Below, piece by piece: positions 12,042-64,000 of a stretch of 64,000 nucleotides of DNA. Within the stretch, counting starts at the first letter, position 1, and the number at the start of each line of letters is the position of its first letter. This DNA comes from a virus, in the IMG/VR virus record IMGVR_UViG_3300032561_000012, positions 1 through 64,000 of that record, one strand, 5' to 3'. The translations under genes and the position numbers were made by a program. The notes beneath the pieces are model-generated. The model ran no database searches. It was given only the letters and a program-made list of their open reading frames with translations, and was not told where the DNA came from.

Positions 12042-12937
12042 TCTCTAACCATTGGTCCTTGATTTTTAAAGTTACTCTTATAATGATGTTTAAAAAATTT
12101 GCTTTCTTCTGGATCCATATCCACAATAGGTAAACCTAAACGTTGCCGTAGTGTATCACCTATTACCTTGCAGTGATCTATAGCAATATCCTCATGGTTG
12201 TATTCATTCCATAGGTCTTCAAGTGTATCAAAGTCTTGTACCCAACGATATTCCCAATCGCATAGCATTGTTAAGTATGTGCCCAAGCGTGCGCCATATA
12301 TTGCCCAGAAGCCATTTTCTACATCTGCGCCTACTGTTTGCCAAATGCACAAATGGTCATAGTTACGTGAGTGTACACGTTGCTCAAACTCAGATAAATT
12401 AGGCTTTGCACCGCGATCTAAACACATCTTAACGCCTTCACGGAAGCCTGCACGCCATGCCTGGAAAGCTGTTTGATTAGGATATGTTGTTGAATAACAA
12501 TCTGCCATAGCCCAGTAGTTGGGATAGAAACAAAACTCTACATCATTCTTAGCGTCGCCGTCTGATGCTTCATGTGTTCGCATGTTATACACAAACTCTT
12601 TGGTCCAGCAACTTAGTCCTCCGTTTCCGTACTGTAGCCCATTAATATGGTTGCGAGCACGCCAACGAAATACTTTATCGCTATTAGCATCAGTAAGAGC
12701 AAGCTGAAGGTTAAAAAATCCTGGATCGGGTATATTATCACCGTCAACAACCACAAAACGATCAGTGTCGCTGATGTCAGCACATGCCTTGTGTGCGGCG
12801 TCACTGCCCTTAACTCCGTCAACCCTTTTTGCCCATGGTACCATGTTTTGAATCTTAATCCAATTTTGTTCTTTATTAGGTTCATCATATGTTAGGTATA
12901 TTACATCCAAGTCTGCTATGTCAATTAGTTGTGTCAT
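12038..12937 (-). CDS. GT-A-fold glycosyltransferase-like protein
   Basis: DVIYLTYDEP start, AHKACA helix, VVVDGDN DxD motif, YGNGG. Confidence 0.6.
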   Translation of the reverse strand: MTQLIDIADLDVIYLTYDEPNKEQNWIKIQNMVPWAKRVDGVKGSDAAHKACADISDTDRFVVVDGDNIPDPGFFNLQLALTDANSDKVFRWRARNHINGLQYGNGGLSCWTKEFVYNMRTHEASDGDAKNDVEFCFYPNYWAMADCYSTTYPNQTAFQAWRAGFREGVKMCLDRGAKPNLSEFEQRVHSRNYDHLCIWQTVGADVENGFWAIYGARLGTYLTMLCDWEYRWVQDFDTLEDLWNEYNHEDIAIDHCKVIGDTLRQRLGLPIVDMDPEESKFFKHHYKSNFKNQGPMVRE

Positions 12938-19856: not shown

Positions 19857-21218
19857 TTAACTAGATAGTTGGAACCAGAAGTCCCCGTTGTTACTACCAG
19901 CATCATTTACTCCTAGAACAGGAGCAGAGTTGCTGACAAATTTAGCTGAACCACCCCACCATTGTGCGGCATTCTTTACAAATCCTGTAGTCGCTACTGC
20001 GGCATTACCTGAACCATTGTAGGTATCTGGTTGTGTTACTGCGGTTGCTCCACCAAATAAATTAAATCCTGATTGTGAAGCTGTGGCTACTGTTGATCCA
20101 TCAATAGACAATGTCATTGAGCCAACATCAGTATCAGTAATACTTAAAATACTGTTTGATTGGTAAATTGCGTTAGTTTTAAATCCTGAATTGTTAACTA
20201 CAAAAGATGTAGTAGCAATCATAGCATTAGCTGTACCAGCTGGTGCTGTTGGTGCTGTTGGTACACCTGTTAACGCAGCGTTAATAAAGCTGTTGTCAAC
20301 GTATTGTTTAGTAGCAACACCTAGTGGTTGTGCAGGGTCATTGGCAACGTAAACGTTGCCATCTAAGCCGCTAATATAAAGAGCTTTTTCTTGTCCATTG
20401 ACTAATGAGTTAACGTGGAAGCTGACATTGCCACCTAGATACGTGTTATATAATCTACCAGTTCCTGTTGTTGTAACATTAGCAAAGAATGTTCCTAATG
20501 TACCCAATTGAATACCAACATTACTTTGTAATGTTAGACTACCTGAGCCTACATTGTTTAGATCACTACGGAAATAACTAGCCGCTGGATATGCGCCTAG
20601 ATAGCTAGCATTATTAGCTGTGCCATAGATAGTATAACTACTATTCATGTTATAGCCAGCTTGGATAACTGTATTAAAACCTGAGATAGGTGTAGCTAAC
20701 GTAAATGTTGCTGAGCTAATAATTGCAGTGCGAGTACCATCTAAGTAAATTGATACCACATCGTGTGGATTACTACCAGTATCAAGTAATTGTTCCCATA
20801 CTGCACCACTACCGTTGCGTTGTGGGCCTACTAAGACCCAACTGGTGCTGCCAAGACAAACATAAAGTTGGTTGTATGTGGTATCTAGATAAAAGCTACC
20901 TGCTACTGCTGAAATTGTAGGAACACCGCTTGATGATCCAGTAATTGCTGTGCCTACAGGTACCCATGCATTGGATCCGTTGTAGACATACATTACGTTG
21001 CTGGTTGAATTGTACCACAGTTGTCCCACTTGCGGACTTGTTGGACTTGTGCTATTGGAAAAGTTTACCAATAGTGCCAATTGATCAGTGACCATGATCT
21101 GGCCATAGTTACTGTAGTTACGTCCCACCAGCGTCAAGCTAGTAGTGGTATTGTCTACGGTACCATCTGCAATAGTGCCTAGCGTTTGTCCATTGGGTAG
21201 TGTTATATTGTACGACAT
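19857..21218 (-). CDS. Tail fibre/baseplate protein paralog
   Basis: LVGRNYSNYG..GQLWYN N-domain; ATKQYVD and LTGVPTAPTA fibre motifs; ends NNGDFWFQ. Confidence 0.7.
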   Translation of the reverse strand: MSYNITLPNGQTLGTIADGTVDNTTTSLTLVGRNYSNYGQIMVTDQLALLVNFSNSTSPTSPQVGQLWYNSTSNVMYVYNGSNAWVPVGTAITGSSSGVPTISAVAGSFYLDTTYNQLYVCLGSTSWVLVGPQRNGSGAVWEQLLDTGSNPHDVVSIYLDGTRTAIISSATFTLATPISGFNTVIQAGYNMNSSYTIYGTANNASYLGAYPAASYFRSDLNNVGSGSLTLQSNVGIQLGTLGTFFANVTTTGTGRLYNTYLGGNVSFHVNSLVNGQEKALYISGLDGNVYVANDPAQPLGVATKQYVDNSFINAALTGVPTAPTAPAGTANAMIATTSFVVNNSGFKTNAIYQSNSILSITDTDVGSMTLSIDGSTVATASQSGFNLFGGATAVTQPDTYNGSGNAAVATTGFVKNAAQWWGGSAKFVSNSAPVLGVNDAGSNNGDFWFQLSS

Positions 21219-51608: not shown

Positions 51609-51785
51609 ATGGCAGATAAACCACACCCAAGTAAACGACACAATAACCCAATGCAGTATAAGAGTGGTAAGGCCAGATTAGGTCCATTGAATGTCAAACA
51701 GCTTTCAGAATTGTTAAATAAAACACAACGTAAGAAAGATAAAGCAAAAATTACGAGAGAACTTGCTCGTAGACAAGCAGTATAA
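51609..51785 (+). CDS. 58-aa basic protein MADKPHPSKRH...ELARRQAV; not in ORF track
   Basis: AAGGAGA RBS; fills the gap; K/R-rich. Confidence 0.65.
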   Translation: MADKPHPSKRHNNPMQYKSGKARLGPLNVKQLSELLNKTQRKKDKAKITRELARRQAV

Positions 51786-51805: not shown

Positions 51806-51985
51806 ATGGCAACATTACATGAACAAATTTTAGAAGCAATTGAAACATACAAAGCAGAATCAGAAAAGTTTGACGGTAAGGGTGTTAAAGCCGCTGCCGC
51901 ACGTGCTCGTGGTGCATTAGGTGACTTAGGCAAACTAGCCAAAGCTCGTCGTGCAGAAATCCAAGAGAAGAAAAACAGTTTATAA
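51806..51985 (+). CDS. 59-aa Hc1/histone-H1-like DNA-binding protein; not in ORF track
   Basis: MATLHEQILEAIETYKAESEKFDGKGVKAAAARARGALGDLGKLAKARRAEIQEKKNSL; KGxKAAxxRARxAL motif; AAGGA RBS. Confidence 0.7.
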   Translation: MATLHEQILEAIETYKAESEKFDGKGVKAAAARARGALGDLGKLAKARRAEIQEKKNSL

Positions 51986-52690
51986 TTGAAAAAGATTTTA
52001 TACATCAACGGAGACAGTTATTCTGCACCAACTGAGTATGGGATGTATGGCAATGTTTTATCACATCAATATAATATTGGGTTAGTAAACAAAGCTGTCA
52101 TTGGTAGTTCAAACCACAGAATAATTCGATCTACTCTAGAAGATTGTATAAAATTTAAAAGACAAAATATAAACGTATATGTGATCATTGGCTTATCATT
52201 TTTCACACGTGAAGAAATATGGGCTAACACAGATAATGAATTTGTTAAAAGACTTAACGAATGCCCTGAAGGAAAATTTGTTACTTTAGACTCAGTTCGT
52301 AAAGAAGATTTAACTATTTTTGATAAACGACGATTAGTTGATTTAAATATTAATGTGCAGGTTGTACAATTACTTGTTAATATTTTTATGTTAACTAACA
52401 CATTAACTTTATTAAATATTCCTCATTTTATTTTTTCTGCGGCGCATAATCAGCCCAACAGTGAATTAAAATGGGGATATTTAAATCAATTAGAAGTTTA
52501 TCAAGATATTAAAAAAAGAAAGAATATTTTAGATATTTTTAATTTCAGTATCCCAACCTGGGCTAAAGAAAATAATGTAGATACTTCTGATACTGGGCAT
52601 TTAGTGAGTATTGGCACACATAAAATATTTGCTGATTATCTCTATGATAATCATCTATCAAAATTAAATTGGGACATCAATGATGTATGA
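51986..52690 (+). CDS. SGNH/GDSL-like protein, AT-rich
   Basis: INGDSYS, NKAVIGSSNHRI, C-terminal DTGHL. Confidence 0.65.
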   Translation: MKKILYINGDSYSAPTEYGMYGNVLSHQYNIGLVNKAVIGSSNHRIIRSTLEDCIKFKRQNINVYVIIGLSFFTREEIWANTDNEFVKRLNECPEGKFVTLDSVRKEDLTIFDKRRLVDLNINVQVVQLLVNIFMLTNTLTLLNIPHFIFSAAHNQPNSELKWGYLNQLEVYQDIKKRKNILDIFNFSIPTWAKENNVDTSDTGHLVSIGTHKIFADYLYDNHLSKLNWDINDV

Positions 52691-53114
52691 ATATCCGTGG
52701 ACTTACAATGGAAAAATATTTGAGTCTGAGGATATCAACAACTATTATGGCTTTATATATAGGATAACTAATACTGTTAACGGGCATGATTATGTTGGCA
52801 GAAAATACTTCAAAACCATCAAAAAGAGACCACCTCTAAAAGGCAAGAAAAACAAACGTAGGGAAACAGTTGAAACTGATTGGAAAACTTACTGGGGCAG
52901 TAGTCCTAGACTCCAAGCAGATATAGACAAACTAGGCCGGGACAAGTTCACACGTGAAATCATACATCTATGTGAGTCACGTGGCGAAACTAATTACTTG
53001 GAAGCCTATTATCAGTTTAAGGAAAATGTATTGTTACGTGAAAACAACTACAATGGCATTATTCAAGTTAGACTAGGTAAGAATTCCGTTAAAGATTTAA
53101 AGATTACAAAATAA
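52680..53114 (+). CDS. Single-domain GIY-YIG family endonuclease
   Basis: GFIYRITN...YVGRK, YWGSS, LEA, YNG. Confidence 0.85.
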   Translation: MMYEYPWTYNGKIFESEDINNYYGFIYRITNTVNGHDYVGRKYFKTIKKRPPLKGKKNKRRETVETDWKTYWGSSPRLQADIDKLGRDKFTREIIHLCESRGETNYLEAYYQFKENVLLRENNYNGIIQVRLGKNSVKDLKITK

Positions 53115-53560
53115 CAGCCCTTTTGCAGATTAAGTTCTGTGTCATGAGGAGATGGTGCTCGCGTAATGGCCGCACTTGGAACGTCTAGAGTAGACTAGAC
53201 ACATGACGGCACGGCAATCAATTAGGTGTAAAAACCAAAAGATTCAGGCTCTGAAACAACTCAACCTGAGAGCAAAACAACAGTTGGCTAACTACGGCTG
53301 TTTGAGCTACCGCCAGAGAAATCTAGAGTAGGGAGTACAGGCTGACCGCTTCCGTGCTGATGATAGCAATCTCTTTTAGTTAGTGTGCGAGTAGGACTCA
53401 GATAAAGCTCTCGTTGCAATTTGCCTGTAATAGGTAAATTGTGACTGAAGGATCTAGATAAAGCATTTAAGAACGTACAATAGTTCAATATATCTTAGAT
53501 TAAAGAGATTAGAAGAAAAAGCATTGAGCGCAAGCGAAAATGCAGATGTCGTAGACATCT
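53115..53560 (+). ncRNA. Putative structured non-coding RNA and/or origin region
   Basis: Longest non-coding gap seen in the window; many stems, some with G-U pairs on the + strand, and long-range pairings (see findings). Confidence 0.55.
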
Positions 53561-53736
53561 TAAAAGAATGGAAACTTACTCTTTTTAGTTGTTTCTAAGT
53601 TATCTTTGATTATCTCACCAATAATGTCTCTTTCTGATTTACTTAACAGCATAGATTCATCATAGCTAAGACCACCACGCATGTACCAACACATTCTTAA
53701 GGCGTCTTCTTTAAAGGCTCTTACCTCTTTGTCCAT
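53560..53736 (-). CDS. gp51-like baseplate hub assembly protein; frame open upstream to the slippery site; not in ORF track
   Basis: MDKEVRAFKEDALRMCWYMRGGLSYDESMLLSKSERDIIGEIIKDNLETTKKSKFPFF. Confidence 0.7.
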   Translation of the reverse strand: MDKEVRAFKEDALRMCWYMRGGLSYDESMLLSKSERDIIGEIIKDNLETTKKSKFPFF

Positions 53737-53774
53737 CTTTTCTAACTGCTGGACAATTTCTTCGTTACTTAGAG

Positions 53775-54623
53775 CTAAGAGCCTAGACCGAAAAAATTTG
53801 CGTAGTCAAACGTAACTTCTGTTTTATATTCATGCTGACATTCGTCACAGACATTATCATATGGTTTAAGACCAGCAGTACTGGCAATCTCAGCTAGTTT
53901 TTCCTGTACTTTGCGTACCGTTGCACTGCTGGTGCTAGAATAAAACTCTCTAATAAACCCGCTGTCAACTACCTTGGTTCCATCACTCATTAGAATATAT
54001 TCTGTGCTGGCTGTTAGGTTGTCTAGATTTAATTCAATTAGTTCTTCTGTAATGGCCTTAAGGTTAGCATCACGGTCTTCTTTGCTGATTTCATTTTCGC
54101 CTTGAGCTAGAACATTTAAAATACGTTGTTCTTTATATGTGATGCTGTTGGCGTTGTTGACTGCAAAATAGTTCTGTGGTTTAAGTTTGATAGTCAAATC
54201 AGGTTCTTGAATCAAATTATCAAAGTTTGGCATGGTGATTTGATCCAGGGCCGCGTTAAGATTAACAGTATGATCATTAGTGTGTTTGCACTTAGGACAA
54301 CTGGTATTGATGTCCATATCACTGCCATAACTGGCAATACGTATAGCAATCAAACAAGCATCAACGTCTACACTAGGCATAGCCCACGGGTCTTGAATAC
54401 TAGGAATACAGCTTTTGACTACTTCTACAATGGCTGATCCGTTGATTAAACTATCTGGTGTACGCAGGGTAATTTCATCTTTGGTAGTCATAGGGTACAC
54501 AGGCAGTTCACCTGTAGCACTGAGTGTTAGTGCGCCCTCAGGCCAATATTTGCCCTTACTAGGTAACTTTAAAAAGATCGCAGGTTGGCGAAAATGCTTG
54601 GCTAAAGGATTAGTTTGATTCAT
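53775..54623 (-). CDS. Baseplate hub assembly chaperone, T4 gp26-like; start probably MNQTNPL
   Basis: LKLPSKG, PMTTKDE, DVDACLIAIRIAS, CPKC and CDEC pairs, ends ANFF. Confidence 0.8.
   Translation of the reverse strand: MNQTNPLAKHFRQPAIFLKLPSKGKYWPEGALTLSATGELPVYPMTTKDEITLRTPDSLINGSAIVEVVKSCIPSIQDPWAMPSVDVDACLIAIRIASYGSDMDINTSCPKCKHTNDHTVNLNAALDQITMPNFDNLIQEPDLTIKLKPQNYFAVNNANSITYKEQRILNVLAQGENEISKEDRDANLKAITEELIELNLDNLTASTEYILMSDGTKVVDSGFIREFYSSTSSATVRKVQEKLAEIASTAGLKPYDNVCDECQHEYKTEVTFDYANFFGLGS
53790..53799 (-). other. Candidate -1 ribosomal frameshift site A AAU UUU UUC
   Basis: Two overlapping X XXY YYZ heptamers in the zero frame near the gp26-like stop; the -1 frame is the gp51-like ORF. 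Confidence 0.65.
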
Positions 54624-54693
54624 GGTGATTTTTTCCAATAAATATATGATATACTACGTAATATTTAGCACCAATAAAGTGAGCATATAATAA

Positions 54694-63875: not shown

Positions 63876-63960
63876 ATAAATATACTTGTTCACTCAGACA
63901 AGAGAGTTTATGCAGCCCCACTGCGTAGGCCTAGAACGCCATTTATAAAGGAGAAAACAA
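63876..63960 (+). promoter_or_regulatory. Late promoter (ATAAATA) plus structured 5' leader
   Basis: Three short hairpins and a possible GUUC/GAAC pseudoknot before the AAGGAG RBS. Confidence 0.5.
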
Positions 63961-64000
63961 ATGGGACGTCCAATTAAATTAACACAAAGCAGTTCAATTG
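63961..64000 (+). CDS. 5' end of a late gene (MGRPIKLTQ...), truncated by the window
   Basis: AAGGAGA RBS and ATG. Confidence 0.6.
   Translation, partial: MGRPIKLTQSSSI

What the first reader, a model, noticed from the sequence alone, without database searches (positions are those of the whole stretch)
52680..53560. Minimal GIY-YIG nuclease followed immediately by a ~445-nt multi-stem, possibly pseudoknotted RNA
Seen: the 144-aa nuclease has only the catalytic domain with a basic insert (KKRPPLKGKKNKRR) and no DNA-recognition extension. The gap after its stop is packed with helices: GTCATG 53141-46/CATGAC 53202-07 enclosing GTGC/GCAC and GTCTAG/CTAGAC; AATC/GATT; CAGG/CCTG; AACAGTTG 53279-86/CGGCTGTT 53295-302; a 14-bp stem 53413-26/53432-45 with three G-U pairs; long-range GGCACGG 53208-14/CCGTGCT 53352-58; and AGGAGAT 53147-53/ATCTCTT 53369-75, which would be a pseudoknot. 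G-U pairs favour a + strand RNA co-transcribed with the nuclease. I do not recognise it as tRNA, tmRNA, RNase P, group I/II intron or HEARO/omega RNA. Inference: an undescribed large phage ncRNA, perhaps forming an RNP with the nuclease (RNA-supplied specificity) or acting as a replication primer.
Basis: partly seen in the sequence, partly recalled or inferred. Interest (0 to 1): 0.8.

Follow-up and report, generated by a model that had tools for sequence, protein, structure and literature searches.

The report
Large twin-box phage RNA behind nuclease
The gene-free 445 bases behind a small nuclease gene of this uncultured freshwater T4-like phage encode a real, doubly knotted non-coding RNA of a large, mostly uncatalogued family that shows the same short word twice, and its job is still unknown.

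Summary
The gap 53115-53559 is a real structured RNA on the + strand. It is conserved over its full length in 65 related viral loci. On 48 distinct sequences, 97 proposed pairs are 93.3% paired against 84.0% in shuffles and 32-43% when slid, and 42 pairs show changes on both sides. On 94 more diverse sequences, 48 of 72 core pairs do. Its long-range GGCACGG/CCGTGCT pairing and its AATC/GATT helix do not. Its AGGAGAT/ATCTCTT knot never varies, so it cannot be tested. It also missed two 11-12-nt "boxes" 56 nt apart that stay identical while changing at least 13-14 times on the tree.

No Rfam family matches the window. A sister clade carries Rfam Polynucleobacter-1 (RF01718) as its 5' domain in front of the same core.

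A small nuclease gene lies upstream in 61 of 61 loci: GIY-YIG in 54 and PD-(D/E)XK in 7. Other genes are often inserted between it and the RNA. Nothing shows that the two work together.

This scan had already noted the same RNA family on other genomes. Function is unknown; my best guess is a scaffold that presents twin loops to a two-fold reader.

The parts
52680..53114 (+). 144-aa stand-alone GIY-YIG nuclease gene (catalytic domain only, basic insert at residues 47-61)
   Evidence: ORF. Pfam PF19835, E 3.7e-38, residues 7-124. PHROG 447 over the full length, E 3.8e-41; 19 homologues with invariant G24 F25 Y27 Y38 G40 R60 E103 N125.
53116..53560 (+). Whole structured RNA (about 445 nt)
   Evidence: conservation. 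(covariation).
53117..53210 (+). 5' domain. A closing helix 53117-19/53208-10 encloses hairpin 53125-40 and a three-way junction: 53141-46/53202-07 with hairpins 53154-76 and 53183-200. The joining strands AGGAGAU and UGGAAC are conserved.
   Evidence: helices 2-6; 53118/53209 is CG 45, UA 15, AU 3. The closing helix is misaligned in A1 (42% paired). This domain is specific to the near clade and fails the RF01718 model.
53225..53269 (+). Hairpin 53225-27/53234-36 and helix 53244-48/53265-69 with inner pairs 53252-53/53262-63
   Evidence: helices 1-3: 3 of 3, 4 of 5 and 1 of 2 pairs changed on both sides.
53279..53302 (+). Hairpin 53279-86/53295-302. Its loop CUAACUA (53288-94) is the 5' strand of pseudoknot 2.
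   Evidence: helix 4 (8 of 8 pairs compensatory) and helix 5.
53312..53353 (+). Near-invariant core. Strand 53312-16 pairs with 53342-46 inside the loop of hairpin 53331-36/53348-53 (pseudoknot 1). CUAGAGUAGGG precedes it.
   Evidence: helices 6 and 8. Invariant columns.
53355..53383 (+). Hairpin 53355-58/53365-68, the invariant strand AAUCUCUUU (53368-76), and UAGUUAG (53377-83), the 3' strand of pseudoknot 2
   Evidence: helix 9, and helix 5 (98.6% paired, 7 of 7 compensatory).
53388..53413 (+). Short variable hairpin carrying box 1 (ACUCAGAUAAAG, 53396-53407) in its apical part
   Evidence: In one search the stem (helix 15) has 3 of 4 pairs compensatory but only 50.6% of cells paired, because that stretch is poorly aligned. 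Local folds are not consistent.
53414..53444 (+). 13-bp hairpin between the two boxes
   Evidence: helix 16 (99.7% paired). helix 10 (6 of 13 compensatory).
53452..53463 (+). Box 2 (AUCUAGAUAAAG), a direct repeat of box 1 at +56. Its UCUAG could pair with 53323-27.
   Evidence: The pairing with 53323-27 is 96% paired but has 0 of 5 compensatory changes (helix 7).
53465..53519 (+). A-rich linker of variable length, largely absent in the far clade
   Evidence: alignments.
53521..53560 (+). Two 3' hairpins: 53521-25/53539-43, with GA/GA internal loop and inner GC-GNNA-GC, and 53544-50/53554-60
   Evidence: helices 11-13: 5 of 5, 2 of 2 and 6 of 7 pairs compensatory. Read on the - strand, the first hairpin is followed by UUUUUCUUCU. 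That is my own reading as a terminator for the convergent genes; the scan lists none there.
53560..53736 (-). Convergent 58-aa gene, followed by the PF12322 baseplate gene 53775-54638 (-). This is the fixed downstream neighbour.

Best explanation
The gap encodes an RNA gene product in its own right: a roughly 445-nt, doubly pseudoknotted non-coding RNA on the + strand (53116-53560).

Shown:
- It belongs to a large family in uncultured freshwater T4-like phages.
- One sister clade carries Rfam Polynucleobacter-1 (RF01718) as its 5' domain.
- The window's own 5' domain has a similar layout (a hairpin plus a three-way junction) but fails that model.
- Two identical 7-8-nt words (RGAURAW inside ACUC.../AUCU... 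boxes) lie about 56 nt apart on either side of a 13-bp hairpin. Selection keeps them identical while the word itself drifts.

Inferred:
- The RNA is made as the 3' end of the + strand operon transcript, because it abuts the stop codon of whichever ORF precedes it. It ends at conserved hairpins at the convergent gene junction.
- The near-invariant knotted core is a rigid platform.
- The RNA acts in trans as a scaffold or decoy that presents twin loops to one reader with two equal binding sites.
- The GIY-YIG nuclease is a fixed syntenic neighbour, not a demonstrated partner.
For: The RNA is real.
- Matches of 400 nt or more in 65 loci, 48 distinct sequences.
- 198 of 204 loci held at that point match an nhmmer profile.
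- A1: 97 pairs, 93.3% paired against 84.0% shuffled (0 of 500 shuffles reach it). 42 pairs are compensatory against 30.2. Slid controls give 32-43% paired.
- A2 (94 sequences): 90.0% against 77.5%, 48 of 72 pairs compensatory, pseudoknot 2 at 7 of 7 and pseudoknot 1 at 3 of 5.
- Invariant G-U pairs place it on the + strand.

Family link. L097 and L171 carry RF01718 (39.2 and 38.5 bits, cut-off 37) directly 5' of a core that matches the window's profile (99 and 92 bits).

Start of the RNA. It lies 0-15 nt after the preceding stop codon in the 18 loci inspected, whether that ORF is GIY-YIG, DUF6071-like or a zinc-finger gene. No promoter-like site lies at 53000-53115.

Twin boxes.
- 53400/53456 are GG 51 and AA 45.
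- 53404/53460 are GG 53 and AA 40.
- 53406/53462 are UU 57 and AA 38.
- These are among the top-scoring column pairs of 96 sequences.
- All 8 RGAURAW words occur.
- On a tree built without the box columns, the pairs change 14/14 (joint 14), 13/13 (joint 13) and 10/11 (joint 11) times. Independent pairs go the same way 7 of 7, 6 of 6 and 6 of 6 times.
- Mixed boxes, which one crossover between the boxes would make, are 0, 0 and 1 of 94.

Presence in RNA. A freshwater metatranscriptome holds contigs 80-95% alike that tile 53116-53565.
Against:
- No column of the five neighbouring proteins tracks the box state.
- The phage's own word is not enriched in 780 kb of flanks: 73 against 74.0 forward, 61 against 58.7 reverse.
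- Two extra exact copies in the window are not conserved in 5 orthologues each.
- Local folds do not consistently put the boxes in hairpin loops. Box 1 was classed 8 in a loop, 11 unpaired but not enclosed, 74 partly paired and 1 with no box found, of 94. Box 2 was 2, 6 and 86. 'Twin loops' is therefore a model.
- The metatranscriptome evidence consists of contigs of relatives. DNA carry-over is not excluded, and no RNA ends are known.
- A nuclease gene upstream in 61 of 61 loci is also what a functional pair would give.
Confidence: 0.5

Rival explanations
1. The nuclease and the RNA form one machine. The small nuclease (GIY-YIG or PD-(D/E)XK) has no recognition domain of its own, docks on the RNA, and the twin boxes set what is cut.
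For: - A small nuclease gene lies upstream on the same strand in 61 of 61 distinct loci, directly adjacent in 42.
- The nuclease has only a catalytic domain.
- Two unrelated nuclease folds occupy the same slot.
- If the RNA supplies the specificity, no covariation between box word and nuclease sequence would be expected.
Against: - The RNA core is the same with either nuclease family.
- About 11 of 61 loci have a whole gene inserted between nuclease and RNA.
- Synteny covers several other genes as well, such as p59 and the baseplate pair, so adjacency may simply be inherited gene order.
- There is no hypervariable guide, only 3-4 polymorphic positions.
- Own-word sites are not enriched nearby.
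- From memory, not tested here: T4 endonuclease II is a minimal GIY-YIG enzyme that needs no RNA.
Confidence: 0.12
2. The nucleases are free-standing homing endonucleases that parasitise a very conserved RNA gene, using it as a landing or cleavage site. The adjacency then says nothing about what the RNA does.
For: - The Pfam family is SegE-type, and four weaker PHROG hits are annotated as homing endonucleases.
- Two unrelated nuclease families sit in the same slot.
- The slot between p59 and the RNA also takes up other genes.
- The RNA core has long invariant runs that would suit a target.
- From memory: T4 segB sits in the tRNA gene cluster.
Against: - The nucleases are not sporadic: one is present in 61 of 61 loci.
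- Protein identity is 80-92% across 80 loci, with catalytic-type residues invariant.
- There is no DNA-binding extension of the kind typical of Seg proteins.
Confidence: 0.12
3. It is a cis-acting 3' untranslated element. It would stabilise or terminate the + strand operon transcript and insulate it from the convergent baseplate genes, with no action in trans.
For: - It always lies at the 3' end of a + strand operon, at a convergent junction.
- The 3' hairpins abut the stop codon of the - strand gene. Read on the - strand, the first hairpin is followed by a U-rich run.
Against: - 350 nt of near-invariant, doubly knotted core and identity-selected boxes are far more than a terminator or stabiliser needs.
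- The terminator scan finds none at 53500-53560 on either strand.
Confidence: 0.1
4. The twin boxes have no outside reader. They touch each other as a parallel run of like-with-like base pairs (A-A, G-G, U-U), a tertiary contact that closes the fold.
For: - The covariation is of the identity type (GG/AA, UU/AA).
- It holds at three positions in one parallel register of +56.
- No complementary partner column was found within the RNA.
Against: - No such multi-pair contact is known to me in a natural RNA (from memory).
- The box prefixes differ consistently, CUC against UCU.
- The spacing between boxes varies from 51 to 61 nt.
- These tools cannot test it.
Confidence: 0.1
5. It is a replication-origin element. 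The transcript primes DNA synthesis, and the boxes are iterons for an initiator protein acting on DNA.
For: Direct repeats that stay identical within a genome but differ between relatives are typical of iterons (from memory). Nothing found here is specific to this idea.
Against: - The constraints are on RNA pairing, including G-U pairs.
- There are only two repeats.
- No composition-skew switch was examined beyond, and no initiator gene was found nearby.
Confidence: 0.04

Closest known systems
Polynucleobacter-1 RNA motif (Rfam RF01718; listed in Table 1 of Weinberg et al. 2010, PMC2864571; one passage seen)
   Same: In relatives L097 and L171 this 141-nt motif lies directly 5' of a core homologous to the window's RNA. 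The layout of its 3' half (a hairpin, then a stem enclosing two hairpins) resembles the window's 5' domain. It is also found in fresh water and has no known function.
   Different: The window's RNA does not match the model, even in a 301-nt search at E up to 10. Nor do 11 loci and 9 of 10 records of relatives. RF01718 covers about a third of the RNA at most. It has none of the knotted core, the twin boxes or the 3' hairpins. The paper's table flags it as probably cis-regulatory.
GOLLD and ROOL, large ornate RNAs often carried by phages (Rfam; cryo-EM paper PMC12286853, listing and abstract only)
   Same: These too are large, intricately folded and often phage-borne, with long conserved single strands and no known function. 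They need no protein-coding partner.
   Different: There is no match to any Rfam model. This RNA is smaller. It is not next to tRNA genes: there are none in the 64-kb window. Whether it forms oligomers was not tested.
Phage T4 segB in the tRNA gene cluster
   Same: A free-standing GIY-YIG nuclease gene sits beside conserved structured-RNA genes in a T4-type genome.
   Different: Here the nuclease lacks a DNA-binding domain and is present in every locus examined, rather than sporadically.
Lambda-type N protein and boxB hairpins (from memory)
   Same: The same RNA loop sequence occurs twice in one phage and differs between related phages.
   Different: There the two copies lie in two transcripts, and the protein reader is known and covaries with them. 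Here both copies are in one RNA, and no neighbouring protein covaries with them.

Membership tests
Rfam RF01718 Polynucleobacter-1 | Scores at or above the family's gathering score (37 bits) against the covariance model | tested here: not met
   No match in the window at the gathering score. None at E up to 10 in 901 nt or in 301 nt. None in the whole 84.5-kb record.
Rfam RF01718 Polynucleobacter-1 | Homology to RNAs that do contain the motif | tested here: met
   L097 and L171 score 39.2 and 38.5 bits for RF01718. Immediately 3' of it they match the nhmmer profile of the window's family over profile positions 115-421/431, at 99 and 92 bits.
Rfam RF01718 Polynucleobacter-1 | Same secondary-structure layout in the 5' domain | tested here: inconclusive
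   By eye, from the model's structure line and the helices, both show a hairpin followed by a stem that encloses two hairpins. The first 60 model positions have no counterpart downstream of the ORF stop.
GOLLD / ROOL / HEARO / OLE / raiA (large bacterial and phage RNAs in Rfam) | Match to the family covariance model | tested here: not met
   Only chance-level hits to unrelated families, with E 1.9-9.6.
GIY-YIG nuclease, SegE type (Pfam PF19835) | Profile match above the curated cut-off, with conserved motif residues | tested here: met
   131 bits against a cut-off of 25, over residues 7-124. G24 F25 Y27 Y38 G40 R60 E103 N125 are invariant in 19 homologues down to 38% identity. Reading these as catalytic residues is from memory.
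Free-standing homing endonuclease (Seg-like) | C-terminal DNA-binding domain and sporadic distribution among close relatives | tested here: not met
   The protein is 144 aa with one domain. A nuclease is present in 61 of 61 loci, GIY-YIG in 54.
RNA-guided nuclease systems (omega RNA/TnpB-IscB, bridge RNA) | A hypervariable guide segment, and linkage to the same effector family in all genome contexts | tested here: not met
   Only 3-4 polymorphic box positions and 8 main words. The effector differs between clades: GIY-YIG or PD-(D/E)XK. There is no HEARO match.
Type III toxin-antitoxin RNA (ToxI-like) | Tandem array of near-identical repeats of about 36 nt, followed by the toxin gene | tested here: not met
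   Only the 12-nt boxes repeat. The 56 nt between them is a unique hairpin. The genes downstream are convergent baseplate genes. The family's features are from memory.

The most novel reading that the evidence does not exclude
The RNA is the recognition subunit of a modular nuclease machine. Small catalytic-domain-only nucleases of two unrelated folds (GIY-YIG or PD-(D/E)XK) plug into the same knotted RNA, and the two identical, drifting boxes set a two-part nucleic-acid target. This would be a phage RNA-directed nuclease unrelated to CRISPR, TnpB or IscB.
Probability: 0.1. Interest if true: 0.95.

Novelty: new variant of a known kind. Interest (0 to 1): 0.65.

Why it matters
Large, intricately folded RNAs of unknown function are rare, and each has been a source of new RNA biology.

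This one is widespread. It has two well-supported pseudoknots.

It also shows an unusual signal: two short segments that must stay the same as each other while being free to change. That points to a reader with two equal sites or to an unusual RNA-RNA contact. It can be tested directly with matched and mismatched box mutants.

The finding also shows that the orphan Rfam motif RF01718 is only the front end of a much larger RNA in some phages. If the RNA turned out to work with the neighbouring nuclease, it would be a new kind of RNA-protein nuclease.

Tried and rejected
1. Known RNA classes. ARAGORN found no tRNA or tmRNA in the window. Rfam gave nothing for the gap at the gathering score or at E up to 10.

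2. Coding remnant. The gap has no ORF of 60 aa or more. The 42-aa ORF 53203-53331 lies across covarying helices.

3. Cultured phages. blastn of 52600-53800 found no match. blastn of 53215-53470 at E up to 10 gave 6 records with 8-11% coverage and E 0.8-3, which is chance. An earlier scan note claimed relatives in E. coli, Salmonella and Klebsiella phages. I could not reproduce that with these searches.

4. Bacterial genomes. An exact scan with the core pattern found 0 stretches in genome contigs. I did not use the second scan that was allowed, so 'absent from bacteria' is not shown.

5. A target for the boxes in trans.
- The phage's own word is not enriched in the flanks.
- In six records, 6 of 16 further ACTC/ATCT-prefixed hits carry the own word (my count). 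That is suggestive only.
- The window's two exact extra copies (12388 and 20883, antisense inside ORFs) are not conserved in 5 orthologues each and do not follow the box word. I read them as chance.

6. A neighbouring protein as box reader. The best mutual information for any column of p58b, p59, GIY-YIG, p58 or the baseplate protein is 0.07-0.40, against an entropy of about 0.62-0.76.

7. Box complement within the RNA. None was found. The best partners are poorly aligned columns with 30-71% standard pairs.

8. Twin hairpin loops by local folding. The result was inconsistent.

9. A CsrA-type decoy with GGA in loops (consensus from memory). About half of the family has AGA, not GGA.

10. Translational bypass or a tiny ORF. 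Only a 6-codon frame runs into box 1 (read).

11. AAUCUCUU pairing with AAGAGAUU at 53503-10. The complement is specific to the window and not conserved.

12. Expression. One freshwater metatranscriptome held 5% of the sampled words. When laid, its contigs (80-95% alike, so from relatives) tile 53116-53565. Depth cannot be ranked, DNA carry-over is not excluded, and parts without cover mean nothing.

13. Nuclease fold. Sequence and profile searches of the PDB gave nothing.

14. Supplementary files of PMC2864571 and PMC10690425 could not be seen. They may hold the RF01718 description, or a candidate that overlaps this RNA.
Full report
WHAT IS THERE. The window is part of an 84.5-kb IMG/VR virus record. 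Its genes are T4-like: an SbcC-type ATPase ORF, a radical-SAM protein and a PF12322 baseplate protein. ORF 52680-53114 (+) encodes 144 aa. It matches Pfam SegE_GIY-YIG over residues 7-124 (131 bits, cut-off 25) and PHROG 447 over its whole length. The basic stretch KKRPPLKGKKNKRR is present and there is no second domain. The following 445 nt have no ORF of 60 aa or more. Their G+C is 0.44-0.47, against 0.27-0.40 around them. The gap ends at the stop codon of a convergent 58-aa gene, which is followed by the baseplate gene.

IS IT MORE THAN CHANCE? Single-sequence folding is only mildly unusual: z -2.1 on the + strand and -1.4 on the - strand. The comparative evidence is decisive.
- A protein-anchored scan found 221 relatives of the nuclease in viral contigs, of which 80 loci were kept.
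- blastn of the gap found matches of 400 nt or more in 65 loci, giving 48 distinct sequences at 68-89% identity.
- A scan with a 32-nt pattern from the most conserved part of the RNA does not depend on the nuclease.
- An nhmmer profile then matched 198 of the 204 loci held at that point, including far relatives that share only profile positions of about 120-440.
- On the 48 near relatives (A1), my 97-pair structure is 93.3% paired, against 84.0% in shuffles (0 of 500 reach it) and 32-43% when partners are slid. 42 pairs changed on both sides, against 30.2.
- On 94 sequences that include the far clades (A2), the 72 core pairs are 90.0% paired against 77.5%, and 48 pairs are compensatory.
- G-U pairs that never vary, such as GU:94 and UG:94 in the 53331-53 hairpin, would be A-C mismatches on the other strand. 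The RNA is therefore read from the + strand.

Six of its helices are confirmed with covariation: GTCATG/CATGAC, the two hairpins it encloses, CAGG/CCTG, AACAGTTG/CGGCTGTT and the long stem 53414-44.
- The long-range GGCACGG/CCGTGCT is 77.7% paired with no compensatory change, and it competes with three covarying helices.
- AATC/GATT is paired in about 6% of cells.
- The proposed AGGAGAT/ATCTCTT knot is 98.8% paired but invariant, so it is untested. The far clades lack AGGAGAU and keep a GAGG-type motif in their 5' domain (by eye).

(a) Pseudoknot 2. The hairpin loop CUAACUA (53288-94) pairs with UAGUUAG (53377-83). All 7 pairs are compensatory and 98.6% of cells are paired. In far relatives, for example, AUUUAUCAU pairs with AUGAUAAAU.
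(b) Pseudoknot 1. Strand 53312-16 pairs with 53342-46 inside the loop of the GGGRGU/GCYUCC hairpin. 3 of 5 pairs are compensatory.
(c) The 3' hairpins 53521-43 and 53544-60 covary too, with 5 of 5, 2 of 2 and 6 of 7 pairs compensatory.
(d) The twin boxes, described next.

THE TWIN BOXES. I noticed them, before I looked at earlier notes. Box 1 (53396-53407, ACUCAGAUAAAG) and box 2 (53452-53463, AUCUAGAUAAAG) flank the 13-bp hairpin.
- In a mutual-information scan of 96 sequences, the same-letter pairs rank 3rd, 5th and 15th of all column pairs: 53400/53456 (GG 51, AA 45), 53406/53462 (UU 57, AA 38) and 53404/53460 (GG 53, AA 40).
- All eight RGAURAW words occur, plus GACGAAA, GUCGAAA and AGAUCAA.
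- On a tree of the 94 RNAs built without the box columns, the two members of each pair change 14/14, 13/13 and 10/11 times. The joint state changes 14, 13 and 11 times, so they change together. Independent pairs on supported branches go the same way 7 of 7, 6 of 6 and 6 of 6 times (p 0.016, 0.031, 0.031). The three-position word changes at least 28 times.
- Recombination that moves both boxes at once could inflate these counts. But one crossover between the boxes would give mixed boxes, and those are 0, 0 and 1 of 94. Identity itself therefore seems to be selected.
- I found no complementary partner inside the RNA. No residue in five neighbouring proteins follows the word. The own word is not enriched in 780 kb of flanks.
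- Two extra exact copies in the window are not conserved in orthologues.
- Whether both boxes sit in hairpin loops is not settled.

CONTEXT AND LINKAGE.
- Among loci found through the RNA pattern, 61 distinct RNAs have at least 2.6 kb of upstream sequence. 42 others had too little upstream and 13 were duplicates.
- Of the 61, 54 have a GIY-YIG gene upstream on the same strand. It is adjacent in 37. In 17 the gap exceeds 60 nt: about 6 of these are around 113 nt, and about 11 hold an inserted gene of 730-1740 nt.
- The other 7 have a PF24608 PD-(D/E)XK nuclease in the same slot. None lacks a nuclease.
- The RNA begins 0-15 nt after the stop codon of whichever ORF precedes it: GIY-YIG, a DUF6071-like gene or a zinc-finger gene (18 loci inspected).
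- Downstream there is always the convergent 58-aa gene and the baseplate gene.
- This fits an RNA made as the tail of the operon transcript. Linkage to 'some small nuclease' is perfect in this sample. All of these phages are syntenic relatives, however, so inheritance of gene order explains it as well as function does.

COMPARISON WITH WHAT IS KNOWN.
- No Rfam family matches the window.
- Earlier notes of this scan named Rfam RF01718 (Polynucleobacter-1) as the first third of this RNA family. I tested that.
- The model finds nothing in the window's record, nothing in 11 diverse loci and nothing in 9 of 10 relatives' records.
- It does score 39.2 and 38.5 bits (cut-off 37) in L097 and L171, directly 5' of the core that matches the window's profile.
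- RF01718 is therefore the 5' domain of one clade of this family. The window's 5' domain has a similar layout but is not a member by the model.
- In the paper library, 'Polynucleobacter-1' occurs only in Weinberg et al. 2010. I saw the one passage, Table 1, where it is flagged as a likely RNA, likely cis-regulatory, from Burkholderiales and fresh water or estuary.
- The 2023 survey of viral structured RNAs (PMC10690425) mentions neither GIY-YIG nor Polynucleobacter in its main text. Its supplements were closed.
- No cultured phage and no species-representative bacterial genome (exact pattern only) matched.

EXPRESSION. One freshwater metatranscriptome (2017) holds contigs 80-95% alike that tile 53116-53565 and parts of the nuclease ORF. 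This shows that relatives' sequence is present in an RNA library. It does not give ends, strand or level.

HOW IT MOST LIKELY WORKS.
Shown: a conserved, knotted RNA on the + strand, identity-selected twin boxes on either side of a hairpin, and a fixed place at the end of an operon behind a small nuclease gene.
Inferred: it is a stable trans-acting RNA whose rigid core presents two equal words to a reader with two equal sites. The nuclease is a neighbour.
I put this at about 0.5 overall. Nearly all the doubt lies in the mechanism, not in the existence of the RNA. The rivals are:
- a nuclease-RNA machine (0.12);
- nucleases homing on a conserved RNA gene (0.12);
- a purely cis 3' element (0.10);
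- boxes that pair with each other, like with like (0.10);
- an origin or primer element (0.04).

VERDICT. In public terms it is an uncatalogued, full-length relative of an orphan Rfam motif and a new variant among large phage RNAs. Within this scan, the same family has already been reported on other genomes.

Noticed in passing
window 63889-63963 (+): The only Rfam hit in the window at the gathering score: freshwater-2 RNA (RF02980), 53.4 bits against a cut-off of 49.9, ending in a ribosome-binding-site-like AAGGAG and an ATG.
   Followed up: no
window 51609-51785 and 51806-51985 (+): Two small basic proteins (58 and 59 aa) with no Pfam or PHROG family. They are conserved just upstream of the nuclease in most related loci, the 59-aa one at 61-96% identity. 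I tested them as possible readers of the boxes and found no association.
   Followed up: partly
L121, L115, L117, L172, L189, L157, L097, L171 (gene directly 5' of the RNA): In these relatives a 167-184-aa PF24608 'phage putative PDDEXK endonuclease' takes the place of the GIY-YIG gene in front of the same RNA core. This is a swap between unrelated nuclease families at one locus.
   Followed up: partly
window 51986-52690 (+); L007, L025, L017, L046 between the nuclease gene and the RNA: The DUF6071-like gene (sub-threshold Pfam hit, 24.8 bits against 27) lies before the nuclease gene in the window. The C-terminal sequence of the ORF inserted after the nuclease gene in other phages looks similar by eye. 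The slot between p59 and the RNA seems to take up and shuffle genes.
   Followed up: no
window 12388-12398 and 20883-20893 (+): Exact extra copies of the 11-nt box 1 and box 2 words, antisense inside two ORFs of unknown family. The pattern gives 6 matches in the window against 2.4 expected. The copies are not conserved in five orthologues each, so I read them as chance.
   Followed up: yes
window 53521-53543, read on the - strand: The first 3' hairpin of the RNA, read on the other strand, is followed by UUUUUCUUCU. It may also serve as the terminator of the convergent baseplate operon. The tool's terminator scan does not list it.
   Followed up: no
G001 (record of L121) 45265, 88627, 208194 (-): Three further exact copies of that phage's own box 2 11-mer (ATCTAGATAAT) in a 250-kb record. 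Two of them lie antisense to open frames. I did not test their conservation.
   Followed up: partly
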